15,488 bases of DNA from a virus: positions 1 through 15,488 of the IMG/VR virus record IMGVR_UViG_3300045988_099754; one strand, written 5' to 3'. The translations under genes were made by a program, and so were the position numbers. This document shows, one piece after another, positions 1 through 15,488 of the stretch (positions are counted from its first letter, which is position 1; each line of letters starts with the position of its first letter). The notes below the pieces were generated by a model. That model did not search any database, was not told where the DNA came from, and saw only the letters and a program-made list of their open reading frames with translations.

Positions 1-140
1 GGCTTACGTTATTCCCAATGAGACCACGACCCCCATTTGTTTAAAAAAGCATGAAAAAATACTTGACAAATAATCGGGTGTGTGTGTGGTATTATAATTA
101 TAGAAACAAAGATAACGCATAAAATAAGGAGGAATAAAAA
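1..140. repeat. Left inverted terminal repeat (140 bp)
   Basis: Bases 1-140 are the exact reverse complement of 15349-15488, compared base by base. Identity stops at 141 versus 15348. The terminus begins 5'-GG. Confidence 0.95.
63..98 (+). promoter_or_regulatory. Early promoter inside the left ITR
   Basis: TTGACA at 63-68, then a (TG)5 tract at 79-88, then TGgTATTATAAT at 87-98. The spacer is 21 nt to TATTAT and 24 nt to TATAAT, so it is non-canonical and probably depends on the extended -10. SD AAGGAGG at 126-132 and ATG at 141 follow. Confidence 0.5.
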
Positions 141-461
141 ATGAAGTTAAGTAGTAAGATTGTATGGGATGAAACTTTTGGGCAGGGTTCATATAACTTT
201 TATAAGCAGGCGAAAGAAGTTGAAAGGCTAATAAATAAAGACGATTATGTAATAGGAATGGTATTAAGGGTAAATAGTGATTTACAGTTACGAATGTCAA
301 AAATTTTAGAACAAGGTGGAAACGATAACATAGGTAGAGCTATAGAATATATGTTGAGAACCATTGGAAGATATATTTATAGAACATATTATATAAAAGA
401 ACATCAATACATGGCAACTATAGATTTAGTGTTGAAAAAATTTACTTTAGAGCGCATATAA
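141..461 (+). CDS. Early protein, unknown function (106 aa)
   Basis: ATG lies 8 nt after AAGGAGG and is the first gene after the ITR promoter. The segment VLRVNSDLQLRMSKILEQGGNDNIGRAIEYMLRTI has a strand-helix-helix pattern reminiscent of ribbon-helix-helix proteins. That similarity is weak. Confidence 0.65.
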   Translation: MKLSSKIVWDETFGQGSYNFYKQAKEVERLINKDDYVIGMVLRVNSDLQLRMSKILEQGGNDNIGRAIEYMLRTIGRYIYRTYYIKEHQYMATIDLVLKKFTLERI

Positions 462-484
462 TATATAATAAGGAGGAATAAAAA

Positions 485-892
485 ATGCTTAATGAAGAAA
501 GACGAAATGTTAGAATCCGTGTGATTGATTCTAATGCAGGTGCGATAGTTAGAAGTGAAGAGATTTTATCGGGTGAGTCATTATCAAGAATAGCTTGTAG
601 ATTTGCGGCTAAAGATACTACTGTTATTGCATCAGTATATAATAGTTTTTATTGTTACTATATCAATGGTGACGATTTTTTGTGCAGTGCTATTAACGAT
701 ATTGAAATAATTAGCTTTTTTGAGGAGGTATTATCAGGAGTGTATGATTATGCACGAGACGCTTATCACATACAATATGGTAGAGTTATAGGATTGCTAC
801 AGTCACGTCATAATTCTAAGCACACTGTATTACTTGCCTGTATAGATAACATATGGAATACAAGACACTATAGAATAGCATACAGGCAATAA
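485..892 (+). CDS. Early protein, unknown function (135 aa)
   Basis: The translation initiation region TAAGGAGGAATAAAAAATG is identical to that of the first gene. I recognise no family motif. Confidence 0.65.
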   Translation: MLNEERRNVRIRVIDSNAGAIVRSEEILSGESLSRIACRFAAKDTTVIASVYNSFYCYYINGDDFLCSAINDIEIISFFEEVLSGVYDYARDAYHIQYGRVIGLLQSRHNSKHTVLLACIDNIWNTRHYRIAYRQ

Positions 893-921
893 TATGATTC
901 AACAGAGGAGGGAAAAAATAA

Positions 922-1374
922 ATGATTAAATATAGACTTCATAACATCACAGATTTTGGTGTAGAACTTCATGACTTCTACACTGAAAACTCACTAAATA
1001 ACTACATAGCCTTGTTTGTAGATTCTCCATATTGGGTTGAAAATTTAGAAACACATGAAAATGTGTATACAGGTTTTGATGGGCATAGCGAAACTCATTT
1101 AGTTAATGAAAATACAGTAGTTACCCCCAATAAATTAGGCGACTTAAATGTTTCACGTGAAACATTACATGAAAGTGAAATAGAATGGATAAAAAGACAC
1201 AATCTTGTAGAAGAAAAAGAGCCATACACTAAATCAGAAAAAATATCCTATTTATTAGCCATCTTATCTGTCATTGTCATGACAACATTTTTACTATATC
1301 TTTTCTTATCTTATGTATCATTTATAGCAGAGCACTTTTCAGAGTTCACTTGGAAAGTATTTAATATTTTATAA
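922..1374 (+). CDS. Early tail-anchored membrane protein (150 aa)
   Basis: SD GAGGAGGG at 905-912. The C-terminal hydrophobic stretch ISYLLAILSVIVMTTFLLYLFLSYVSFI suggests a transmembrane anchor. The coding sequence contains a perfect parS palindrome at 1147-1166. Confidence 0.65.
   Translation: MIKYRLHNITDFGVELHDFYTENSLNNYIALFVDSPYWVENLETHENVYTGFDGHSETHLVNENTVVTPNKLGDLNVSRETLHESEIEWIKRHNLVEEKEPYTKSEKISYLLAILSVIVMTTFLLYLFLSYVSFIAEHFSEFTWKVFNIL
1147..1166. promoter_or_regulatory. parS: parS-like site 1 (perfect, inside a CDS)
   Basis: AATGTTTCACGTGAAACATT. The 16-bp core at 1149-1164 equals the Firmicute parS consensus TGTTTCACGTGAAACA. It is translated as N-V-S-R-E-T-L. Confidence 0.7.
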
Positions 1375-1385
1375 GGAGGAAAATC

Positions 1386-1577
1386 ATGGCAAAATTAACA
1401 AACCAATTATTACGCTACAAAGTGATGTTTACGAAAGGAGGTACGGGCGGTTACACCGCTCGTGTCATGATACCAAAAGAAGCAATACGCGATTTAGATA
1501 TTCACCCGGGGGACAGTATCGAATATACACGTGTTCCACACGGGTTATTATTAAGAAAAGTTGAGAGAGGAGAATAA
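1386..1577 (+). CDS. AbrB/SpoVT (MazE-like) DNA-binding protein (63 aa)
   Basis: ARVMIPKEAIRDLDIHPGDSIEY matches the looped-hinge-helix signature of SpoVT/AbrB domains (compare the RVvIPkeiRe.LgikpGD pattern). SD AGGAGG. The gene sits just upstream of the terminal protein and polymerase genes, where the regulator gene 4 sits in phi29. Confidence 0.6.
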   Translation: MAKLTNQLLRYKVMFTKGGTGGYTARVMIPKEAIRDLDIHPGDSIEYTRVPHGLLLRKVERGE

Positions 1578-2290: not shown

Positions 2291-2305
2291 AAAGAGGTGA
2301 GTATA

Positions 2306-4192
2306 ATGCCACGAAAAAAGAATATAACCTTTTGGGCTTGTGATTTTGAGACAACTGTTTGGGGTGAAAAAGTAGAGCAAGAAAAAGGTAAAAAACAAGA
2401 TTGTACAGAGGTATGGAGTGGTGCTGACGTGGCTTTATACGACGAAACCGAAACCGTAACAATAACACATTCTATCAGAGATTTTTTAAATAGATTTTTG
2501 GCAATGAAAGGAAATAATATATTATACTTTCATAATCTCGCTTTTGATGGTTCTTTTATAGTTGATTTTCTTTTGAGAGAGGGGTGGCAATGGGTACATT
2601 GCAAAGACAAAGAAATGAAGTCAAAGGAGTTCCAAACTTGCATATCTGATATGGGGTCATGGTATTGGATTAAGTTAAAATGGAATAAGACCTTTTTAGA
2701 AATTCGAAATTCTTTAAAGCTTATGCCGTCGTCATTAAAAAATATCGGAAAATCATTTGGGACAAGGCATCAAAAATTAGATATGGATTATGAGGGCGAG
2801 AGATATGCTTATTGTGAGATATCAGAAAGCGAGAAGAAATATATTAAAAATGACGTGCTAGTGTTAAAAGAAGCGTTAGAAATGATGTTTAATGAAAAAC
2901 ACGATAAACTAACGATAGGGTCATGTTGTCTATTAGAATTTAAAGGATTTTATGATGGTAAACAATATGATAAGTTGTTTCCCGATATCAGAGAGGATTA
3001 CTTGGACGAATCTATGACAGGCGTATGGAATCAGTGGGACTATATACATAAATCATATCACGGTGGGTGGTGCTATGTGAACCCTCAATACGCCCATACG
3101 GTAGTGGGTGACGGGTTAGTATATGATGTAAACTCTCTTTATCCGTCCATGATGCACAGCATTAGTGGTAACAAATATCCGTTTGGTCATGGGGAATATC
3201 ATAGAGGAACACCACCCGATGAACTTATAAGCTCTACTAATAAATATTTTTTTATTCGATTTAACTGCCGTTTTCAGTTAAAACGAGGCGCTTTTCCATG
3301 GGTACATATTAGACATAGTGCATTATATAAAGCGAATGAAAATTTATATAGTTCTAACGTTAGATACAAAGGCGAATATTATAGATATTATCGCGATATT
3401 GAGGGTCAGATGCATGATACTAATATTACTCTTACTATGACTTGTACTGACTGGAAGTTATTCCAAGAAACTTATGATATCTACGATTTGGTTATCTACG
3501 ATTATGTGTGGTTCTATGCTAGAGAGGGTTTTTTTGATGAATATATAGATAAATATGGAGAAGAAAAGAGAACGTCAAAAGGTTTTAAGAGACAGAAAGC
3601 TAAACTCTTTTTGAATAATCTTTACGGCAAATTTGCCATGTCGGATAACTCTTCCTATAAAGAGCCTTATCTTGATGAAGATGGGATTATCAGATTTATC
3701 TTGCATGAGGAACATGAGAAGAAAGTGGGGTATATCCCGATTGGTAGTGCTATTACTTCTTACGCTATGAACTTTACAATTCGTCACGCTATGGCGAATT
3801 ATGATAGGTTTTGCTATGCTGATACGGATTCTATACATTTGATAGGTCTTGATAAGGCGAATAAGGTCGTAGAACATCAAACGAATTTTTGCTGTTGGAA
3901 ATGTGAGAGTACATTTGATTTCGCGTATTATGAACGACAAAAAACTTATGCAGAACATATAGTTGAAGAGAATCATGAGCCTTGCGACCCTTACCTTGAC
4001 ATTAAAGCTTGTGGCATGAGTAATCAAGCGAAACGAAAATTTATAGAAGAGGGAAAAGACATCTCTGAATTATCGACAGGGCTTAGCATGGAAACCTGTA
4101 ATTTGAAAGCAGAGCGCGTGAGGGGAGGTATTGTGTTAAGGAATAAAGACTTTAACATTCATCAGCAAAAAGATAAAAAAATTATGATATAA
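2306..4192 (+). CDS. Family-B DNA polymerase, protein-primed (phi29 gp2-like)
   Basis: Exo I: FWACDFETT. Exo II: YFHNLAFDGSFIVDFL. Exo III: YIKNDVLVLKEAL. Motif A: YDVNSLYPSMM. Motif B: KLFLNNLYGKFA. Motif C: YADTDSIHL. All closely match the phi29 polymerase motifs. I place the start at ATG 2306 (SD AGAGGTGA at 2293-2300) rather than the ORF-track start at GTG 2297. Confidence 0.95.
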   Translation: MPRKKNITFWACDFETTVWGEKVEQEKGKKQDCTEVWSGADVALYDETETVTITHSIRDFLNRFLAMKGNNILYFHNLAFDGSFIVDFLLREGWQWVHCKDKEMKSKEFQTCISDMGSWYWIKLKWNKTFLEIRNSLKLMPSSLKNIGKSFGTRHQKLDMDYEGERYAYCEISESEKKYIKNDVLVLKEALEMMFNEKHDKLTIGSCCLLEFKGFYDGKQYDKLFPDIREDYLDESMTGVWNQWDYIHKSYHGGWCYVNPQYAHTVVGDGLVYDVNSLYPSMMHSISGNKYPFGHGEYHRGTPPDELISSTNKYFFIRFNCRFQLKRGAFPWVHIRHSALYKANENLYSSNVRYKGEYYRYYRDIEGQMHDTNITLTMTCTDWKLFQETYDIYDLVIYDYVWFYAREGFFDEYIDKYGEEKRTSKGFKRQKAKLFLNNLYGKFAMSDNSSYKEPYLDEDGIIRFILHEEHEKKVGYIPIGSAITSYAMNFTIRHAMANYDRFCYADTDSIHLIGLDKANKVVEHQTNFCCWKCESTFDFAYYERQKTYAEHIVEENHEPCDPYLDIKACGMSNQAKRKFIEEGKDISELSTGLSMETCNLKAERVRGGIVLRNKDFNIHQQKDKKIMI

Positions 4193-4620: not shown

Positions 4621-4971
4621 ATGGTAGAAGTTAAAGAAATGAGCAGAGAATTCACAAAGGTTGAGAAGTATCTTATGACTACAGCGCCGGACATTGAGCC
4701 GTTAAAAAATATCGCGGACGGAAAATCTATTCCGATAGACGGATATATTATTTTTGATGATATCAAAGATAACGGAGATGTGCAGGAGATTGTATCTATT
4801 ATTACACCGGACAAGAAAGTATACTCCGGACAGTCTGCAACCTTTAAACAGTCTTTGAAAGATATTGAAAATGTAATGGAGGGTGAGAAGTTTTCTATTG
4901 TTAAAATTAGCGGAAAGACAAAAGCAGGGCGTGATTATATTAATTGCATTTTAGACGTGTCAAATTTATAA
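4621..4971 (+). CDS. Possible phi29 p5-like ssDNA-binding protein (116 aa)
   Basis: KNIADG ... QEIVSIITPDKKVYSGQSATF ... EKFSIVKISGKTKAGRDYINCIL parallels the phi29 p5 pattern (KNLPDG ... ETVTTIFAADGSLYSAISKTV ... ETFKVKVVQGTSSKGNVFFSLQL), recalled from memory. A terminator follows. Confidence 0.45.
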   Translation: MVEVKEMSREFTKVEKYLMTTAPDIEPLKNIADGKSIPIDGYIIFDDIKDNGDVQEIVSIITPDKKVYSGQSATFKQSLKDIENVMEGEKFSIVKISGKTKAGRDYINCILDVSNL

Positions 4972-5010: not shown

Positions 5011-5039
5011 AGAGGGGTGGCTATATGCCACCTCTTTTA
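5011..5039 (+). terminator. Rho-independent terminator
   Basis: AGAGG(GG)TGGC - TATAT - GCCACCTCT followed by TTTTAT. This is a 9-bp GC-rich stem with a 2-nt bulge. It ends the 4196-promoter module and may be leaky. Confidence 0.7.
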
Positions 5040-5046
5040 TAAAATA

Positions 5047-5066
5047 AATGTTTCACGTGAAACATT
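5047..5066. promoter_or_regulatory. parS: parS-like site 2 (perfect)
   Basis: AATGTTTCACGTGAAACATT. It directly abuts the SD AGGAGG (5067-5072) of the packaging ATPase gene. Confidence 0.7.
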
Positions 5067-5080
5067 AGGAGGTGTTAAAA

Positions 5081-6127
5081 ATGAAAAATGATGGTTATTA
5101 TCATTGCGATAGATTGTTGACTTTAAAAGATAAAAACGGGAATACACCCGATATTTATATTGTGGACGGCAATAGAACGGCAGGTAAAAGTTATTCTATT
5201 AAGTGTAGACAGGTATCTGATTTTTTAAAAGATAAATATAGACCCGAAAATCAATTTATTTATTTATATAGGAACGTTGTTGATATGAAAAACTGTACAG
5301 ACACATATTTTGGCGATATATCTGAAAAATTCGAGGGTTATGTTATGACTGAAAAAAGTTTGATGAACGGTTCTTTGATTCAATTATTTTTGAATGAAGA
5401 GCCATGCGGTTATTGTTTAGCTTTGTCTGTTGCTAGAAAATATAAAAAAATGCGTGGGTTATTTGTGAATGTCCGTTCTGTATTTTTTGATGAATATCAA
5501 GACGAGGATAATGTATATTTATCAAATGAGGTGAATAAACTTTTATCGTTGCTTACAACTATTAGTGCAGGACACGGAAAGCAACATAGAAGAGTTATGC
5601 TATATATGGCTTCAAATACTGTGTCACTATTAAACCCTTATTATAATGTGTTTGGGATTAACAAAATGTTAAAATACAACACTAAATTTTTACGAGGTGA
5701 CGGTTGGGTATTTGAGCGGACGTATAATGAAAATGCGTCTACAGCTTATCAGGAAAGTGGTATTGCGCGAGCGTTTCAAGGTGCTAGTTATAATGAATAC
5801 GCGAGCGAAAATAAATATCTAAACGACAACGATTGTTTAATCGGTAAACCTAGCGGACAATCGCGTTATATTTGTACAATTAGGTTTAATGAAAAAATGT
5901 ACAATGCAAGAAGATATGATGCTTGTATATATATATCAACAGGGGCAGATGAAAGTTTTCCGATACGTATATGCTTTACAAAAAATGATGTCATAGACAA
6001 CACAGCTATACGAGTGAATTCAACCCATTATATCGTCACGATGCTACGGGAATATTTCAACAGAGGATTGCTTTTATTTGAAAATTTAGAATGTAAGAAC
6101 ATGATATTTGATGTCATATCGTTTTAA
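5081..6127 (+). CDS. DNA encapsidation ATPase (phi29 gp16-like)
   Basis: Walker A GNRTAGKSY and Walker B VFFDEYQ. QFIYLYR, NEVNKLLSLL and SNTVSLLNPYY parallel phi29 gp16 (GARGIGKSY, QFIYVRR, FDEF, NEVSALLNL, SNAVSVVNPYF). I place the start at ATG 5081, 8 nt after the SD, rather than GTG 5072. Confidence 0.9.
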   Translation: MKNDGYYHCDRLLTLKDKNGNTPDIYIVDGNRTAGKSYSIKCRQVSDFLKDKYRPENQFIYLYRNVVDMKNCTDTYFGDISEKFEGYVMTEKSLMNGSLIQLFLNEEPCGYCLALSVARKYKKMRGLFVNVRSVFFDEYQDEDNVYLSNEVNKLLSLLTTISAGHGKQHRRVMLYMASNTVSLLNPYYNVFGINKMLKYNTKFLRGDGWVFERTYNENASTAYQESGIARAFQGASYNEYASENKYLNDNDCLIGKPSGQSRYICTIRFNEKMYNARRYDACIYISTGADESFPIRICFTKNDVIDNTAIRVNSTHYIVTMLREYFNRGLLLFENLECKNMIFDVISF

Positions 6128-6145
6128 TGTTTCACGTAAAACATT
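6126..6145. promoter_or_regulatory. parS: parS-like site 3 (15/16 core)
   Basis: AATGTTTCACGTAAAACATT. It overlaps the ATPase stop codon, and its last two bases are the first two of the -35 TTGACA at 6144-6149. Confidence 0.65.
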
Positions 6146-6172
6146 GACAGTTTAAATTATATATGCTATAAT
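6144..6172 (+). promoter_or_regulatory. Consensus sigma-A promoter driving a non-coding transcript
   Basis: TTGACA at 6144-6149, a 17-nt spacer, then TGcTATAAT at 6164-6172. A second TATAAT sits at 6173-6178. No ORF or SD follows for about 200 nt. Confidence 0.75.
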
Positions 6173-6178
6173 TATAAT

Positions 6179-6291
6179 GTACCCAAAATAATACGAACAT
6201 TGTAATTGATATACGCGCACATAGACAAGTAGTCTGATATCAATTTTTTGGCGTTGCGTTCCCTTTGATTCGATTATTTTGTTACGTACAT
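6179..6291 (+). ncRNA. Candidate packaging RNA (pRNA-like structured ncRNA)
   Basis: This is the only sizeable non-coding gap and it has its own consensus promoter. Folding by eye gives a terminal helix: 6179-6182/6286-6289, 6184-6192/6273-6281 and 6194-6197/6269-6272. That helix closes a three-way junction. Arm I is 6204-6212/6237-6245, with a 10-nt 5'-side loop ACGCGCACAU and an apical hairpin 6223-6226/6232-6235. A U-rich junction spans 6246-6249. Arm II is a short hairpin at 6250-6263 with loop CGUUGCGUU. The 3' end is uncertain: either the T6 at 6244-6249 or the parS hairpin plus T-run ending near 6330. Confidence 0.45.
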
Positions 6292-6292
6292 A

Positions 6293-6326
6293 TGTTTCAC
6301 GTGGGCAATGTTTCACGTGAAACATT
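6293..6326. promoter_or_regulatory. parS: parS-like site 4 (perfect) with a degenerate upstream copy
   Basis: TGTTTCACGTGGGCAA (6293-6308, 12/16) is followed by AATGTTTCACGTGAAACATT (6307-6326, perfect core at 6309-6324). The centres are 16 bp apart. The site ends 5 nt before the -35 of the late promoter. A T6 run follows, so it could also act as an RNA hairpin terminator. Confidence 0.7.
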
Positions 6327-6331
6327 TTTTA

Positions 6332-6360
6332 TTTACAAGCAGTTCTATTTGTGTTATGAT
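6332..6360 (+). promoter_or_regulatory. Late (lysis and structural) operon promoter
   Basis: TTTACA at 6332-6337, a 17-nt spacer, then the extended -10 TGtTATGAT at 6352-6360. SD AAGGAGGTGG and the holin ATG at 6381 follow. Confidence 0.65.
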
Positions 6361-6380: not shown

Positions 6381-6605
6381 ATGCAGGAAATCATGACAAT
6401 GATTAACACTTTAGGCGTACCAACAGCCGTAGCTATAGCTTCTATGTGGTATGTGAAATATCGAGAAGATAAAAATGATGAACGCCTAGAGAATTTGAAT
6501 GAAGCGCATAAACAGGAAATGACAGATATCACAGAAGCGTTGAACAACAACACACTTGCGCTTCAAAGAATATGCGATACATTTGAACAAAAAAGGGAGG
6601 ATTAA
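6381..6605 (+). CDS. Holin, BhlA/UviB-like (74 aa)
   Basis: A single N-terminal transmembrane segment (LGVPTAVAIASMWYV) is followed by a charged coiled-coil tail (KYREDKNDERLENLNEAHKQE...), the BhlA-family layout. The gene lies directly upstream of the endolysin. Confidence 0.6.
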   Translation: MQEIMTMINTLGVPTAVAIASMWYVKYREDKNDERLENLNEAHKQEMTDITEALNNNTLALQRICDTFEQKRED

Positions 6606-6607
6606 AC

Positions 6608-7597
6608 ATGGCAGTAAAAAAAGCAGTAGACATTTCATATCACAATGGGGTTATTGATTTTGAACGATTAAAAAACGCTGTAGACTATGTTATCATTCGT
6701 TGCGGATATGGACAAGATATGGCATCACAGGATGATAAACAATGGATTCGAAATGTTGGTGAATGTGAAAGATTAGGAATTCCATACGGAGTATATTTCT
6801 ATTCCTACGCAAAAACAACAGCAAAAATCGAGGGCGAAATTAGACACTGCCTTAGATTGTTACAAGGTCACACACCTACTCTTCCTGTATTTTTCGACAG
6901 TGAAGAAAAAGGAACGCAAGGAGTTGCAAAGCACAACGCAAAGCGTTTTTGTGATGCGATGCTGACGAACGGTTATAAGGCAGGAATCTATGCTAGTAAA
7001 TCATGGTTCGAGAATTATATTGGCGAAACATGGGGATATGATTTATGGATAGCTCGGTACGCGAATGTGTTAGGTGTAGATAATGTGGACATATGGCAGT
7101 ATTCCAGTAATGGCTCTGTTGACGGTATTAATGGAAGATGCGATGTGAATCACGTGTATAAAGACTATGGAGCTTCAAGTGCTACGCCTACTATACCGCA
7201 GCCCCCTACTAGTCAAGCAAAATCAAGAAATGAATTAATTGCTTTAGGTCAACAGCACGCTATTAATTTTACAGGTATTCAGATTGCTGTAGACGGGATT
7301 GTTGGGAGAAACACAAAAAGAATGGCTGTACGTGTCGTGCAAAGAGCTATGAATGCGGATTATGGTTATACCATTGCAGAGGACGGAATTGTAGGCAAAA
7401 AGACAAGAGCAAAAGCAGGAAAGCATTATGTCAAGCGAGGAGAAACGCAGTATCTTGTCACAGCTCTTGAAATCTTGTGTTTGTTGCAAGGAAAAGACCC
7501 GAACGGTGTCGAATGTCCGGGAACATTTGGCGGAGGTCTTGCACGCGCTTGTGGTAGTGGATTTGTCTACGCAAAAGATATGCTATATATGTTATAA
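6608..7597 (+). CDS. Endolysin: GH25 muramidase plus two peptidoglycan-binding repeats
   Basis: N-terminal GH25 hallmarks: VDISYHNG, IIRCGYG, FFDSEE, WIARY, IWQYSSNGSVDGINGRCDVN. The C-terminus has two PG_binding_1-like repeats (VDGIVGRNTKRMAVRVVQRAMN and EDGIVGKKTRAKAGK). Confidence 0.9.
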   Translation: MAVKKAVDISYHNGVIDFERLKNAVDYVIIRCGYGQDMASQDDKQWIRNVGECERLGIPYGVYFYSYAKTTAKIEGEIRHCLRLLQGHTPTLPVFFDSEEKGTQGVAKHNAKRFCDAMLTNGYKAGIYASKSWFENYIGETWGYDLWIARYANVLGVDNVDIWQYSSNGSVDGINGRCDVNHVYKDYGASSATPTIPQPPTSQAKSRNELIALGQQHAINFTGIQIAVDGIVGRNTKRMAVRVVQRAMNADYGYTIAEDGIVGKKTRAKAGKHYVKRGETQYLVTALEILCLLQGKDPNGVECPGTFGGGLARACGSGFVYAKDMLYML

Positions 7598-7600
7598 TTT

Positions 7601-7639
7601 CTATTCACGTGAAGCAAAAAATGTTTCACGTGAAACATT
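7601..7639. promoter_or_regulatory. parS: parS-like site 5 (perfect) with a degenerate upstream copy
   Basis: CTATTCACGTGAAGCA (7601-7616, 12/16) and AATGTTTCACGTGAAACATT (7620-7639, perfect core at 7622-7637). The centres are 21 bp apart. The pair lies between the endolysin and tail-lysin genes. Confidence 0.7.
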
Positions 7640-7659: not shown

Positions 7660-8667
7660 ATGCCAAATATTAATGTAGCGTATCAATGGGCGGTCAATGC
7701 GTGCAATGCCCCTAATATTGGCTATTCACAGCAATACCGAAGAGGGCAGACCGTGAACGGCATTACTTATTATGATTGCAGTTCTTTTATATCAAAAGCG
7801 CTAACAGAAGCAGGATTTTTCTCACCGAACCCATGGTTCACGACAAGAACCGAGGAGGGCTATCTATTACAGGCAGGGTTTAAAGAAATCAGCATTAATG
7901 AAGCGTGGCAGGCAGGGGACATTGTTTGGCGTAGCGGTCACACGGAAATGGTATATAGCGGAAATGGTGTTGGAGGTGGAGGTGTCACCATGGGAGCGCA
8001 CAGTGGGCGTTATCCATTGCCCGAACAAGTAAGTATTAATTCCCATGTGTCGAAACCGTCCGCTTGGACAAAGATATATAGATATGGTGACAGTGCAGGA
8101 ATGCCCCTTGAATGGATTCACGGAAACCGTTATCTCACAGAAGATGAAATGAAAAACAACGCTTATGTATTCTATAGCACAATGTTTTTTAAAGATTTCA
8201 CTTTGAACGCTATTGCAGGAATGTTAGGTAATATGGAGATAGAATCCAATATCAATCCCGAATTATGGCAGTCACTAAAAGAGGGAAACTATAACGGTGG
8301 TTATGGACTTGTACAATGGACTCCAGCCACAGTCTACACAGACTGGGCGAACGCTCACGGGTATGATATCACAGACGGTTACTATCAATGTGTTTGGCTC
8401 GATGAAGAAACAGTAAGTAGTGGACAGTGGATTGAGACCACGAAATATCCGATATCGTGGGAAGAGTTTAGAAAGTCCACAAAAGAACCTGATTATCTCG
8501 CGTCAGTATTTCTAAAAAATTTCGAGCGTGCAGGAGTAGAAAAAGAAGAGGAGCGGAAAAAGAACGCGCTAAAATGGTATGCATATTTGCAGACATTATC
8601 ACCCTACCCAATCCACCCACATTCAAGAAAAACAAAAATGCCTCTTTACTTTTTCTTTCCGTGGTGA
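7660..8667 (+). CDS. Two-domain peptidoglycan hydrolase, probably virion/tail-associated (335 aa)
   Basis: The N-terminus resembles the Amidase_5-type Cys/His hydrolase of streptococcal phage lysins (YSQQYRRG...YYDCSSFISKALTEAGF...GDIVWRSGHTEMVY; compare Dp-1 Pal YSMDFRDG..YDCSS...GDIF..GHTGM). The C-terminus resembles the phage tail lysozyme domain (LGNMEIESNINPE...GGYGLVQWTP). I place the start at ATG 7660 after GGGGGG/AGTAAAAAAA. The ORF-track start at 7609 would read through the parS palindrome. Confidence 0.75.
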   Translation: MPNINVAYQWAVNACNAPNIGYSQQYRRGQTVNGITYYDCSSFISKALTEAGFFSPNPWFTTRTEEGYLLQAGFKEISINEAWQAGDIVWRSGHTEMVYSGNGVGGGGVTMGAHSGRYPLPEQVSINSHVSKPSAWTKIYRYGDSAGMPLEWIHGNRYLTEDEMKNNAYVFYSTMFFKDFTLNAIAGMLGNMEIESNINPELWQSLKEGNYNGGYGLVQWTPATVYTDWANAHGYDITDGYYQCVWLDEETVSSGQWIETTKYPISWEEFRKSTKEPDYLASVFLKNFERAGVEKEEERKKNALKWYAYLQTLSPYPIHPHSRKTKMPLYFFFPW

Positions 8668-14407: not shown

Positions 14408-15115
14408 ATGAGTTCAACAAACAAAACAAATTATTATGACTTAAGTCAGTATATTGGTACTGACAAACCGACATACTTAGGAGACTACAACTCCGATATG
14501 TCTAAAATTGATGCAGGGATTCACGGTGTAGAGGACAAAGCTACCACAGCTTCACAGAACGCAGGAAGTGCAATTGCTAGAGTTAGCGAGGTAGAAAAAA
14601 CAGTGTCAGCACATACAGAAAGCATTACAACATTACAGGGCGATGTAAAAGGTTTAAAAGATAGTGTTAAAACTGCACAGAATACAGCTGCAGACGGCGT
14701 TCAAAAAGCTGAAAACGCGCAACAGACAGCTAACAGCGCACTTTTAACAGCAAATAATGCGAGTGCAAAAGCTGATAATGTCAATAAAGATGTAACGTTG
14801 TGGACAGGTACAAGTAAAAATTCACCTATCACATTAAATGACAGTTTAACCAATTATAGATTTTTATACATCGAAACAAACGAGGGCATTACGCCTGTTT
14901 TCCCTCTCAGAAATGATAAAAAGAAATACGTAGGTTGTCAGCAGGTTATATCGGCAGGTTCTTCTAACACTGTTGTTACTATTTCAATTAAAATAACTGT
15001 TAGTGATGATACACACATCACAATTTTAACTAATGCTATGGACCACAGTTTCAGTGACGGTCACCCATCATTAGACGCAATTGCTGTACTAGGTGTGTAT
15101 GGCATTCCAAGATAA
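14408..15115 (+). CDS. Tail fibre / receptor-binding protein (235 aa)
   Basis: The N-terminal motif NYYDLSQYIGTDKPTYLGDYNSDMSKIDAGI is typical of Firmicute phage fibre N-termini. An alanine/glutamine-rich coiled-coil stalk and a C-terminal beta-rich head of about 100 aa follow. It is the last late gene before the terminator. Confidence 0.6.
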   Translation: MSSTNKTNYYDLSQYIGTDKPTYLGDYNSDMSKIDAGIHGVEDKATTASQNAGSAIARVSEVEKTVSAHTESITTLQGDVKGLKDSVKTAQNTAADGVQKAENAQQTANSALLTANNASAKADNVNKDVTLWTGTSKNSPITLNDSLTNYRFLYIETNEGITPVFPLRNDKKKYVGCQQVISAGSSNTVVTISIKITVSDDTHITILTNAMDHSFSDGHPSLDAIAVLGVYGIPR

Positions 15116-15130
15116 TAATGGTGCGATATA

Positions 15131-15166
15131 AAAACCCCTCCTACAATTGAGGGGTTTTATTTTTAT
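15131..15166. terminator. Bidirectional rho-independent terminator
   Basis: AAAACCCCTC (15131-15140), an 8-nt loop, then GAGGGGTTTT (15149-15158). It is flanked by a T-run on the + strand (ATTTTTATT) and by TTTTTATAT when read on the - strand. It separates the convergent late operon and the right-end ORF. Confidence 0.85.
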
Positions 15167-15172
15167 TCCTCC

Positions 15173-15349
15173 TTAATTAATATTTTTATCTATCATTTCT
15201 CGCCTTAGTTCTTCTAACTCCTGCTCTAACTCCTTTTCTTTAATATATGCATATTCACTTTCTGGATACTTTTTCGAAAAATCGTATGCTTTAGCCCATT
15301 GATTTAATAATGCCTCGTATGCTAATTTATATAATCTTGATTCTACCAT
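15173..15349 (-). CDS. Right-end early protein, unknown function (58 aa, absent from the ORF track)
   Basis: Minus-strand ATG at 15349-15347; its A is the last base of the right ITR. It uses the ITR-borne promoter and SD AAGGAGG. Translation: MVESRLYKLAYEALLNQWAKAYDFSKKYPESEYAYIKEKELEQELEELRREMIDKNIN, with stop TAA at 15175-15173. Predicted helical. Confidence 0.6.
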   Translation of the reverse strand: MVESRLYKLAYEALLNQWAKAYDFSKKYPESEYAYIKEKELEQELEELRREMIDKNIN

Positions 15350-15488
15350 TTTTATTCCTCCTTATTTTATGCGTTATCTTTGTTTCTATAATTATAATAC
15401 CACACACACACCCGATTATTTGTCAAGTATTTTTTCATGCTTTTTTAAACAAATGGGGGTCGTGGTCTCATTGGGAATAACGTAAGCC
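15349..15488. repeat. Right inverted terminal repeat (140 bp)
   Basis: Exact reverse complement of 1-140. Confidence 0.95.
15391..15426 (-). promoter_or_regulatory. Early promoter inside the right ITR (mirror of 63-98)
   Basis: Exact reverse complement of the left ITR promoter. TTGACA at 15426-15421 and TATTATAAT at 15399-15391 on the minus strand. Confidence 0.5.

What the first reader, a model, noticed from the sequence alone, without database searches (positions are those of the whole stretch)
6126..6360. parS sites interlock with two promoters (ncRNA and late operon)
Site 3 (6126-6145) shares its last two bases with the -35 TTGACA of the consensus promoter at 6144-6172. The site 4 pair (6293-6326) ends 5 nt upstream of the -35 of the late promoter (TTTACA 6332-6337, TGtTATGAT 6352-6360). 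That places its centre near -50 relative to the predicted start.

In phi29 the early-to-late switch is set by protein p4 bound just upstream of the late promoter A3. Here the equivalent position holds a host-ParB-type site. Occupancy by ParB, or by a phage factor recognising the same palindrome, could repress the ncRNA promoter and repress or activate the late promoter. That would couple the lytic programme to host chromosome or sporulation status.

Site 4 followed by T6 (6325-6330) could also fold as an RNA hairpin that terminates the upstream ncRNA.
Basis: inference. Interest (0 to 1): 0.7.

Follow-up and report, generated by a model that had tools for sequence, protein, structure and literature searches.

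The report
Host parS sites flank phage pRNA
In this tiny phi29-like gut phage, two copies of the bacterial centromere motif (parS) sit against the promoter and inside the terminator of a small packaging-RNA gene. This looks like a compact variant of phi29's known borrowing of the host DNA-segregation protein, and related phages give no sign that the sites were built to control the two promoters.

Summary
The window is a complete 15,488-bp phi29-like genome with 140-bp inverted terminal repeats. It carries five host-type parS sites: four perfect and one with a single mismatch (0.13 expected by chance).

- Site 3 (6128-6143) lies between the packaging-ATPase stop codon and the -35 of the only perfect + strand sigma-A promoter.
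- Site 4 (6309-6324) is the 3' arm of a 14-bp terminator hairpin. Its T-run ends 1 nt before the -35 of the next promoter.
- All five positions are kept in about 80 related genomes.

The RNA between the two sites (6179-6289) is a packaging RNA (pRNA) by architecture. It has covarying helices and a CE-bulge/D-loop match that differs in six lineages. Rfam does not detect it.

The regulatory reading is not supported by comparison:
- The sister clade has the same promoters and pRNA with no parS at the pRNA promoter. Its parS arrays lie downstream of the late promoter.
- Relatives with no parS keep both promoters.
- phi29, CS229P1 and L134 also have a parS directly after the ATPase stop codon. In phi29 a terminator follows it, and no promoter is evident after it in CS229P1 or L134.

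Best reading: these are ParB-loading sites for hitch-hiking on host segregation, packed into scarce intergenic DNA and reused as a terminator. ParB control of transcription remains possible but untested.

The parts
5081..6127 (+). Packaging ATPase gene (phi29 gp16 family). Its TAA stop codon directly precedes parS site 3.
   Evidence: Pfam Podovirus_Gp16 E = 2.5e-30. PHROG terminase E = 1e-52. tblastn hits to phi29-like phages.
6128..6143 (.). parS site 3, TGTTTCACGTaAAACA (1 mismatch here, perfect in 73 of 82 relatives). It lies at -51 to -36 relative to the predicted pRNA start.
   Evidence: The same +1 offset from the ATPase stop occurs in phi29, CS229P1 and L134.
6144..6172 (+). Consensus sigma-A promoter of the pRNA gene: TTGACA, 17 nt, TGcTATAAT.
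   Evidence: 12/12 match with TG. The -35 is invariant in 82 of 82 relatives while the spacer is variable. Clade B has an equivalent promoter.
6179..6289 (+). pRNA-like structured RNA core (111 nt). It has an A helix formed by the 5' and 3' ends with an invariant CCC, a C helix, a CE bulge, an E hairpin, a U-rich junction and a D hairpin.
   Evidence: Covariation: 92% of cells paired against 36-48% in slid controls, and 27 of 33 pairs have compensatory changes. Within the clade, 98% are paired. CE/D complementarity is lineage-specific in six lineages. Covariance-model hits fall at the expected place in clades B and C.
6292..6325 (+). Intrinsic terminator hairpin of the pRNA transcript. The 5' arm is a conserved parS left half-site (6293-6303). 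The 3' arm is the right part of parS site 4.
   Evidence: 14 pairs followed by a T-run. Folding energy -17.4 kcal/mol, z = -6.65. The left half is conserved and the right half of the upstream copy is variable.
6309..6324 (.). parS site 4, a perfect 16-mer centred near -50 relative to the next promoter's predicted start.
   Evidence: Perfect in 77 of 81 relatives.
6325..6330 (+). T6 tract of the terminator.
6332..6360 (+). Sigma-A promoter of the lysis/structural operon: TTTACA, 17 nt, TGtTATGAT.
   Evidence: 10/12 match with TG. Hexamer conservation 0.98 and 0.93, spacer 0.81. Counterparts in other clades have TTGACA.
6381..6605 (+). First gene of the downstream operon, a putative holin (no family match). 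It is preceded by the ribosome-binding site AAGGAGG and followed by a lysozyme-like endolysin gene (6608-7597, assigned by reading its sequence).
5049..5064 (.). parS site 2. It lies between an intrinsic terminator (5011-5037) and the ATPase ribosome-binding site.
   Evidence: phiCPV4 has a parS at the same -1078 offset from its ATPase end.
7622..7637 (.). parS site 5, in the 62-nt spacer between the endolysin gene and the tail-lysin gene (true start 7660). It is flanked by A6 and T4.
1149..1164 (.). parS site 1, inside ORF 922-1374 (encoding NVSRETL). It is an island of conservation in a variable gene.

Best explanation
Region 6126-6360 is the packaging-RNA (pRNA) gene cassette of a complete 15.5-kb phi29-like phage, probably of gut Clostridia. 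It is bracketed by two of the genome's five host-type parS sites.

**What the sequence shows**
- A consensus sigma-A promoter (6144-6172) starts a 111-nt pRNA core at about 6179.
- Transcription ends at a 14-bp hairpin plus T6 (6292-6330). The hairpin's 3' arm is parS site 4.
- One nucleotide later the -35 of the next sigma-A promoter begins. That promoter drives the lysis and structural genes.
- parS site 3 fills the space between the ATPase stop codon and the pRNA -35 exactly.
- All five parS sites are under purifying selection.

**What is inferred**
- The parS sites are loading sites for the host ParB/Spo0J CTP clamp. They let the infecting or dormant phage DNA ride on the host segregation machinery, into the forespore or into daughter cells. 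This was shown genetically for phi29, which has five parS sites.
- They sit in the few intergenic gaps because that is where a 16-20 bp palindrome fits in so compact a genome.
- Because a palindrome is also an RNA hairpin, it has been co-opted as a terminator stem.
- The contact with the two promoters is mainly a result of compaction. Any ParB effect on them would be a side effect or an add-on, not the conserved purpose. The most likely such effect is mild occlusion of the pRNA promoter by ParB bound at -51 to -36.
For: **parS is real and selected**
- Five sites against 0.13 expected.
- All five positions are kept in about 80 genomes that are about 80-88% identical at the DNA level.
- Site 1 is a conserved island in a variable ORF.

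**Link to phi29**
- The genome has a protein-primed DNA polymerase B (read from the translation), a gp16-family ATPase and 140-bp terminal repeats.
- phi29 has five parS sites tied to Spo0J-dependent spore entrapment (PMC2731898). One of them sits at the same +1 offset after its ATPase stop.

**Compaction and intergenic placement**
- 30 of 42 context-dereplicated parS sites in phi29-like phages are intergenic, against 12% noncoding DNA (p = 6e-19).

**Terminator reuse**
- Hairpins built on parS close the pRNA gene in the window, in L001 and in HM2.
- 9 of 42 sites are followed directly by four or more T.

**Against a designed promoter coupling**
- Clade B has the same promoters without parS at the pRNA promoter, and its arrays lie in the late leader.
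- L087, L093, L101 and L102 have no parS within 1 mismatch yet keep the cassette.
- No ParB-like or p4-like protein is encoded.

**pRNA identity**
-.
Against: - No binding, transcript-end or infection data exist for this phage, and its host is unknown. The only hint is MAG binning to Clostridia.
- parS recurs at exact offsets around the ATPase gene across very distant phages: +1, and -1078 from the ATPase end. Tandem arrays sit in the late-operon leader of clade B. Both hint at position-specific roles that 'it fits there' does not explain.
- Unlike phi29, this genome has no Spo0A boxes near its promoters. How the lytic programme would be silenced in a sporulating cell is therefore open, which leaves room for ParB.
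- A ParB dimer on site 3 would sit where RNA polymerase's alpha C-terminal domain and sigma region 4 bind. Some effect on transcription is therefore hard to exclude.
Confidence: 0.6

Rival explanations
1. Host ParB loaded at the junction parS sites gates transcription. It would occlude the pRNA promoter, repress or activate the late promoter, and act as a roadblock between operons. The lytic programme would then depend on the host's segregation or sporulation state, replacing the Spo0A boxes and p4 of phi29.
For: - Site 3 abuts the -35 and site 4 is centred near -50.
- Four of the five sites lie at transcription-unit or gene junctions, all on one strand.
- Clade B places 2-4 tandem parS between its late promoter and the ribosome-binding site, which is a classic roadblock position.
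- There are no Spo0A boxes at the promoters.
- ParB-family proteins can silence transcription. KorB does so (PMC11790492, listed). From my own knowledge, so do P1 ParB and pneumococcal ParB at the com locus.
Against: - The geometry is not conserved. The sites are upstream of the -35 in this clade, downstream of the start in clade B, and absent in L087, L093, L101 and L102, which keep the cassette.
- The +1 site also exists in phi29 in front of a terminator, and in CS229P1 and L134, where no promoter is evident after it.
- The window's own site 3 carries a central-core mismatch seen in no other relative.
- From my own knowledge, chromosomal Spo0J spreading has little effect on transcription in B. 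subtilis.
Confidence: 0.22
2. The palindromes are mainly RNA or transcription elements. They would act as terminator or attenuator hairpins, or as stabilising stem-loops between cistrons. Their match to parS would be incidental.
For: - Site 4 is a terminator arm.
- Site 5 folds at -8.7 kcal/mol with A6/T4 flanks.
- 9 of 42 sites are followed directly by four or more T, and many lie between a stop codon and the next ribosome-binding site.
Against: - A hairpin tolerates compensatory change. Here the same 16-mer is kept letter for letter across lineages whose ATPases are under 40% identical, and it equals the universal Firmicute parS.
- Site 1 and three of the four phi29 sites found here (1 mismatch each) are inside genes.
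- Clade B uses a different hairpin as its pRNA terminator and still carries parS arrays.
Confidence: 0.08
3. A phage-encoded protein, rather than host ParB, recognises the palindrome and acts as the early/late switch. The 63-aa SpoVT/AbrB-fold protein (1386-1577) is the candidate.
For: It is the only recognisable DNA-binding protein among the early genes. Site 1 lies just upstream of its gene.
Against: - The motif is exactly the host centromere sequence. It is shared with phi29 and with C. perfringens phages, whose early genes are different.
- From my own knowledge, AbrB-type proteins bind degenerate AT-rich DNA, not a fixed 16-bp palindrome.
Confidence: 0.05
4. The identical 16-20 bp sites act as recombination linkers that delimit exchangeable modules between co-infecting relatives.
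For: The swapped endolysin C-terminal module ends within 60 bp of site 5 in 8 of 63 genomes.
Against: No breakpoints fall at sites 2, 3 or 4, and only 3 fall near site 1. Most mosaic borders lie at the genome ends and at gene borders.
Confidence: 0.05

Closest known systems
phi29 parS sites bound by host Spo0J (ParB), used for spore entrapment of the phage genome (Meijer et al. 2005, as cited in PMC2731898)
   Same: - Same phage type, with protein-primed replication and a gp16-family ATPase.
- Same 16-bp host motif, about five copies per genome.
- One copy starts exactly after the ATPase stop codon in both phages.
   Different: - The phi29 sites found here all carry the same 1-mismatch variant, and three of those four lie inside genes. 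Here four of five are perfect and four of five are intergenic, at gene or operon junctions.
- One site here is a terminator arm and one abuts a -35.
- phi29 pairs its parS with Spo0A boxes at its promoters. None are found here.
- The host is probably a gut Clostridium-type bacterium, not Bacillus.
phi29-family prohead/packaging RNA (pRNA; Rfam RF00044)
   Same: - Same order of elements: A helix from the 5' and 3' ends with a C-rich bulge, C helix, CE bulge, E hairpin, U-rich junction and D hairpin.
- The CE bulge and D loop are complementary, and the match covaries between lineages.
- It has its own strong constitutive promoter.
- The primary transcript is about 150 nt, with a 3' hairpin domain after the functional core.
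   Different: - There is no detectable sequence or covariance-model similarity to RF00044.
- The gene sits directly downstream of the ATPase gene in the middle of the genome, not at the left end.
- The loop-loop match is 5-7 nt, against 4 nt in phi29.
- The function is untested.
phi29 early-to-late switch: protein p4 bound upstream of late promoter A3
   Same: Only the position is similar: a protein-binding site lies upstream of the promoter for the structural genes.
   Different: - A3 lacks a -35 and depends on an activator. This promoter has TTTACA plus an extended -10.
- No p4 homologue was detected.
- The site is a host centromere motif.
- The arrangement is not conserved in sister clades.
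Transcriptional silencing or roadblock by ParB-family CTP clamps (KorB on plasmid RK2, PMC11790492; P1 ParB; pneumococcal ParB near comCDE)
   Same: A ParB-type site lies next to or inside transcription units. The clade B arrays in a leader resemble a roadblock layout.
   Different: Those systems have demonstrated repression. Here nothing has been measured, and the site-to-promoter geometry varies between related phages.
Tandem parS pairs in Clostridium perfringens phage phiCPV4 (Guelinviridae); I found no published description of them
   Same: - They are perfect or near-perfect parS and all intergenic.
- One lies about 20 nt before the ATPase start, at the same -1078 offset from the ATPase end as site 2 here.
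   Different: - The phiCPV4 sites come in pairs 25-26 bp apart.
- No pRNA-like gene was recognised next to its ATPase gene with my model.

Membership tests
Chromosomal-type parS (ParB/Spo0J binding site) | Match to the 16-bp palindrome TGTTNCACGTGAAACA | tested here: met
   Four perfect sites and one 1-mismatch site.
Chromosomal-type parS (ParB/Spo0J binding site) | More copies than chance, maintained by selection | tested here: met
   0.13 expected, and none of 200 shuffles reached 5. Positions are kept in about 80 relatives, and site 1 is a conserved island in a variable ORF.
Chromosomal-type parS (ParB/Spo0J binding site) | Bound by the host ParB, which loads as a CTP clamp | not testable with these tools
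   This needs EMSA or ChIP with the host protein. The host is unknown; MAG binning only points to Clostridia.
phi29-type parS/Spo0A spore-entrapment strategy | phi29-like phage (protein-primed DNA polymerase B, gp16-family ATPase, terminal repeats) carrying several parS | tested here: met
   Five sites, as in phi29.
phi29-type parS/Spo0A spore-entrapment strategy | Spo0A boxes (TGTCGAA) at the early and late promoters to shut down the lytic cycle | tested here: not met
   Three strict boxes, all inside genes and none near a promoter. 1.7 are expected by chance.
phi29-type parS/Spo0A spore-entrapment strategy | Phage genome trapped in spores in a ParB-dependent way | not testable with these tools
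   This is an infection experiment.
pRNA (prohead/packaging RNA) | Significant match to Rfam RF00044 | tested here: not met
   No hit at E <= 1 on the whole window or at E <= 10 on 6140-6345.
pRNA (prohead/packaging RNA) | Secondary structure: A helix closed by the two ends, a three-way junction, a C/E arm with a bulge loop, and a D hairpin | tested here: met
   98% of cells paired within the clade. Across clades, 92% paired with 27 of 33 pairs covarying, against 36-48% in slid controls. That alignment was fitted to the model, which favours the structure.
pRNA (prohead/packaging RNA) | CE-loop/D-loop Watson-Crick complementarity that covaries (the basis of ring formation) | tested here: met
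   Six lineages have six different matched pairs, for example ACGCA/UGCGU, GCGUUA/UAACGC and GAAUCAA/UUGAUUC. Matches occur only within a lineage. The window itself has one G-U wobble.
pRNA (prohead/packaging RNA) | Binds the prohead connector and the ATPase, and is required for DNA packaging | not testable with these tools
   This is biochemistry. Genomic linkage to the ATPase gene is only suggestive.
p4/A3-type activated late promoter | Late promoter without a -35, dependent on a phage activator bound upstream | tested here: not met
   The promoter has TTTACA, a 17-nt spacer and TGtTATGAT. No phi29 gp4 family hit was found among the early ORFs.
Intrinsic (Rho-independent) terminator | Stable GC-containing hairpin followed by a U-tract | tested here: met
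   14 bp, -17.4 kcal/mol, followed by T6. The 3' end has not been mapped.

The most novel reading that the evidence does not exclude
Host ParB-CTP clamps loaded at parS sites placed at every operon junction act as a transcription gate that depends on host state. The sites are wedged against promoters in this clade and arrayed in the late-operon leader in the sister clade. Under this reading they throttle pRNA and lysis/structural gene expression. A Clostridia phage that lacks Spo0A boxes and p4 would then tie its lysis-or-dormancy decision directly to the host's chromosome-segregation and sporulation machinery. The same sites would also carry the genome into the spore.
Probability: 0.2. Interest if true: 0.75.

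Novelty: new variant of a known kind. Interest (0 to 1): 0.5.

Why it matters
- **Reach of the phi29 strategy.** phi29's use of the host centromere system would extend from Bacillus to abundant small gut phages of probable spore-formers. This bears on how strictly lytic phages persist and spread with spores in the gut.
- **A tractable system.** Natural parS-positive, parS-array and parS-free relatives share otherwise identical cassettes. They could be used to test whether ParB clamps influence transcription on a 15-kb linear DNA.
- **pRNA beyond Bacillus phages.** A side result may matter more to specialists. A pRNA-type RNA with covarying kissing loops lies next to the packaging ATPase gene in non-Bacillus phi29-like phages. 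A 2024 review still treats pRNA as a peculiarity of phi29 and related Bacillus phages (PMC11476376). The new sequences give many examples for studying how this motor RNA evolves and assembles.

Tried and rejected
- **Rfam.** Searches of the whole window and of 6140-6345 gave no pRNA hit or any other credible hit.
- **DNA similarity.** Megablast and blastn against GenBank phages found no close DNA relative. Relatives had to be found through the ATPase protein.
- **RNAalifold on a plain MAFFT alignment.** Only 8 pairs were recovered, because the clades were misaligned. I replaced this with a hand-drawn structure, a covariance model and a realignment.
- **Generic loop-complementarity test.** A 'longest complementary stretch' statistic on 20-nt windows did not discriminate. 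A test at fixed positions did.
- **parS as recombination linkers.** Breakpoints cluster at the genome ends and gene borders. Only site 5 showed any coincidence, so I rejected this as a general explanation.
- **Spo0A boxes at promoters.** None were found.
- **A phage-encoded ParB or p4.** None was found.
- **Host assignment.** The genome-contig scan returned only metagenome bins of mixed taxonomy, which is not reliable.
- **Literature.** The Meijer 2005 EMBO J paper could not be retrieved. Its content is cited second-hand from PMC2731898.
- **Clustering error.** A first dereplication of parS contexts merged everything through a coding error. It was redone correctly.
Full report
**What the window is.** The 15,488 bases are a complete linear phage genome. 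The two ends are exact inverted repeats of 140 bp. All long ORFs are on the + strand.
- Function assigned by reading the translations: a B-family DNA polymerase (2297-4192), a lysozyme-like endolysin (6608-7597), a major capsid protein, a tail knob and a portal.
- Function assigned by family match: a gp16-family packaging ATPase (5081-6127; Pfam Podovirus_Gp16 E = 2.5e-30) and a tail lysin (7660-8667).

No near-identical DNA exists among GenBank phages. By ATPase protein, the nearest named phages are Clostridium phages CS229P1-3 and HM2 plus unannotated human-faecal contigs, at 36-39% identity. phi29-like Bacillus phages follow at about 27%. IMG/VR holds about 80 contigs with 86-96% identical ATPases. 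It also holds graded clades at 57-60% (clade B), 52% (clade C) and 40-44% (clade D).

**Check of the observation.**
- TGTTTCACGTGAAACA occurs perfectly at 1149, 5049, 6309 and 7622, and with one mismatch at 6128. With up to 3 mismatches allowed, 0.13 matches are expected, and none of 200 shuffles reached five.
- All five sites share the 20-bp extended palindrome AATGTTTCACGTGAAACATT.
- Site 3's 16-bp core (6128-6143) starts right after the ATPase TAA stop and ends right before TTGACA (6144-6149).
- That hexamer, a 17-nt spacer and TGcTATAAT form the only 12/12 promoter with an extended -10 on the + strand.
- At site 4, a left half-site (6293-6303) pairs with the perfect site (6309-6324) in a 14-bp hairpin. 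It folds at -17.4 kcal/mol, z = -6.65, and is followed by T6.
- One base later come TTTACA, a 17-nt spacer and TGtTATGAT (6332-6360). The ribosome-binding site and the first gene of the operon follow.

**Selection.** In the roughly 80 close relatives, all five parS positions recur at the same offsets from the ATPase stop: about -4980, -1078, +1, +182 and +1495.
- Site 3 is perfect in 73 of 82 genomes. The window's G-to-A change in the central CACGTG is seen in no other genome.
- Site 4 is perfect in 77 of 81 and site 5 in 76 of 81.
- Column conservation across 78 distinct sequences:

| Feature | Conservation |
|---|---|
| parS site 3 | 0.99 |
| pRNA promoter -35 | 1.00 |
| pRNA promoter spacer | 0.82 |
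| pRNA promoter -10 | 0.89 |
| RNA body | 0.94 |
| parS site 4 | 0.98 |
| Late promoter -35 | 0.98 |
| Late promoter spacer | 0.81 |
| Late promoter -10 | 0.93 |
| Start of the first downstream gene (putative holin) | 0.78 |

- Conserved hexamers with looser spacers are what real promoters look like.
- The stretch around 6250 is the best-conserved part of the genome, with mean identity 0.93 against about 0.80-0.88 elsewhere.
- Site 1 lies inside ORF 922-1374 and is an island of conservation in a variable gene.
- The upstream copy at site 4 keeps only its left half. That fits a terminator arm better than a second full ParB site.

**What the RNA is.** The 111 nt from the predicted start (6179, 7 nt after the -10) to 6289 fold with their two ends paired.
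- On a hand-drawn structure, 98% of cells pair within the clade, against 33-40% when partners are slid.
- A covariance model built from this clade alone finds full-length matches at the corresponding place in clade B and in L093 and L106, with E from 1e-9 to 1e-2. It gives a weak hit right after the ATPase gene of a 38%-identity relative.
- On the resulting cross-clade alignment, 92% of cells pair (36-48% in slid controls) and 27 of 33 pairs show compensatory changes. The caveat is that this alignment was fitted to the model.
- The order of elements is that of phi29 pRNA (features as reviewed in PMC5066667): an A helix with an invariant CCC near the 5' end, a C helix, a 9-nt bulge, an E hairpin (loop AAGUA), a U-rich junction, and a D hairpin before an invariant CCC.
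- The strongest point is the loop-loop match. The bulge and the D loop are complementary, and the pairing sequence differs in each of six lineages:
  - (A/G)CGCA with UGCGU
  - GCGUUA with UAACGC
  - GAAUCAA with UUGAUUC
  - GGAUA with UAUCC
  - UCACA with UGUGA
  - AGACAA with UUGUCU
- In a fixed-position test, each D-loop 5-mer finds its complement only in its own lineage. This is the signature of the intermolecular CE/D interaction that builds the pRNA ring.
- Rfam's pRNA model does not detect it. A 2024 review treats pRNA as a peculiarity of phi29 and related Bacillus phages (PMC11476376).
- I therefore call it a pRNA by architecture and context. It is not a demonstrated member of RF00044.

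**Does parS belong to the promoters?** Comparison says the link is loose.
1. Clade B has the same layout of ATPase stop, consensus promoter, pRNA and terminator, but with no parS at the pRNA promoter. Its terminator is a different hairpin that carries the next promoter's TTGACA in its 3' arm. Its 2-4 perfect parS, in tandem with a 26-bp period, lie downstream of that promoter in the leader before the ribosome-binding site of the first gene.
2. Clade B members L087, L093, L101 and L102 have no parS within 1 mismatch (L101 has one 2-mismatch match far from this region). All four keep the pRNA gene, and both consensus promoters were read directly in L087 and L102. The promoters therefore do not need parS.
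3. The +1 position after the ATPase stop codon is shared with CS229P1, L134 and phi29 itself. In phi29, site 17243 follows gene 16, which ends at 17242. What comes next there is the bidirectional terminator, not a promoter. No consensus promoter is evident after the site in CS229P1 or L134.
4. Site 2, about 20 nt before the ATPase start, has a counterpart at the same -1078 offset from the ATPase end in C. perfringens phage phiCPV4. All seven of that phage's parS are intergenic, mostly in pairs 25-26 bp apart.

Across all phi29-like genomes gathered here, 30 of 42 context-dereplicated parS sites are intergenic, although only 12% of the DNA is noncoding (p = 6e-19). Nine are followed directly by four or more T. 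In L001 and HM2, as in the window, the pRNA terminator hairpin is built around a parS or a parS-like palindrome.

**Mechanism proposed.**
- Shown by sequence and comparison: the parS sites are real and selected. The two promoters, the structured RNA and the terminator are credible. The overlaps are exact.
- Inferred from established knowledge: chromosomal ParB/Spo0J loads at this motif. phi29 uses its five parS and Spo0J to get its genome into the forespore (PMC2731898). The sites here are therefore most likely ParB-loading sites for hitch-hiking on host segregation.
- Inferred from the comparative pattern: in a genome with about 5-12% noncoding DNA, the sites occupy the few gaps. The palindrome is reused as a terminator stem, and contact with the promoters is mostly a result of packing.
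- A ParB dimer on site 3 would cover -51 to -36, so some damping of the pRNA promoter is plausible. That has not been tested.

**What keeps the regulatory idea alive.**
- This genome has no Spo0A boxes at its promoters.
- It encodes no ParB and no p4. The only recognisable DNA-binding protein is a 63-aa SpoVT/AbrB-fold protein.
- Four of the five sites lie at gene or operon junctions on a single transcribed strand.
- Clade B puts arrays in a roadblock position.
- ParB-family clamps can silence genes (KorB, PMC11790492).

I give this reading about 0.2.

**Rejected or weak alternatives.**
- Pure RNA hairpins: the 16-mer is invariant where a hairpin could drift, and some sites are inside genes.
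- A phage protein as the ligand: the motif is the host's and is shared by phages with unrelated early genes.
- Recombination linkers: mosaic breakpoints do not coincide with sites 2-4.

**Novelty and verdict.** parS in a phi29-type phage is a known kind of thing. New here are the clade (small gut phages, probably of Clostridia), the mostly intergenic and junctional placement, the reuse as a pRNA terminator, and the tandem arrays in a sister clade. The deep conservation of the sites flanking the ATPase gene, and the absence of the Spo0A-box partner system, are also new. The pRNA-type RNA next to the ATPase gene is a worthwhile by-product.

Noticed in passing
window 1-140 and 15349-15488: Exact 140-bp inverted terminal repeats. 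The window is a whole linear genome of a protein-primed phage. This is much longer than phi29's 6-bp repeats.
   Followed up: partly
window 6179-6289; L090 6533-6644; L087 5055-5165; L106 5442-5551; L161 9914-10024: A pRNA-like structured RNA lies immediately downstream of the packaging ATPase gene in several clades of non-Bacillus phi29-like phages. Rfam does not detect it. In L106 an extra gene separates it from the ATPase gene.
   Followed up: yes
L187 (phi29) 17243; L004 10528; L134 9009; window 6128: A parS starts exactly one base after the ATPase stop codon in phages whose ATPases are only 27-40% identical. Goe1 (L189) has a decayed remnant at the same place.
   Followed up: partly
L090 about 6755-6822; L100 about 5982-6076; L191 (phiCPV4) 4812/4838, 7846/7871, 11824/11849: Tandem parS with a 25-26 bp period occur in two unrelated lineages. 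In clade B, 2-4 copies (TCTTGATTCA plus the 16-mer) sit in the leader of the late operon, between the promoter and the ribosome-binding site.
   Followed up: partly
window 4934-4963, minus strand: A second perfect 12/12 sigma-A promoter (TTGACA, 18 nt, TATAAT) points leftward, antisense to ORF 4621-4971. It is only moderately conserved in relatives, where the -35 becomes TTGATA.
   Followed up: no
window 1149-1164 in ORF 922-1374: The parS inside a gene (encoding NVSRETL) is an island of about 90-100% conservation within flanks that are only 50-70% conserved.
   Followed up: partly
window 7601-7616: A degenerate parS-like 16-mer (4 mismatches) lies 21 nt upstream of site 5, echoing the half-site plus full-site layout at site 4.
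   Followed up: no
window 7100-7600: The endolysin C-terminal part is replaced by an unrelated module in about 20% of close relatives. The right border falls within 60 bp of parS site 5 in 8 genomes.
   Followed up: partly
window 1-1000 and 14600-15488: Both genome ends (early genes and the right-end region) are hypervariable among otherwise 80-90% identical relatives.
   Followed up: no
window 1386-1577: A 63-aa SpoVT/AbrB (MazE_antitoxin Pfam) fold protein is the only recognisable DNA-binding regulator. No ParB-like or phi29 p4-like protein was found.
   Followed up: partly
L090 6649-6689: In clade B the pRNA terminator hairpin carries the -35 (TTGACA) of the next promoter in its 3' arm. This terminator/promoter overlap is analogous to the one here but involves no parS.
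   Followed up: partly
window, whole: There are no Spo0A boxes near any predicted promoter. The three strict TGTCGAA matches are all inside genes, against 1.7 expected. This differs from phi29.
   Followed up: yes
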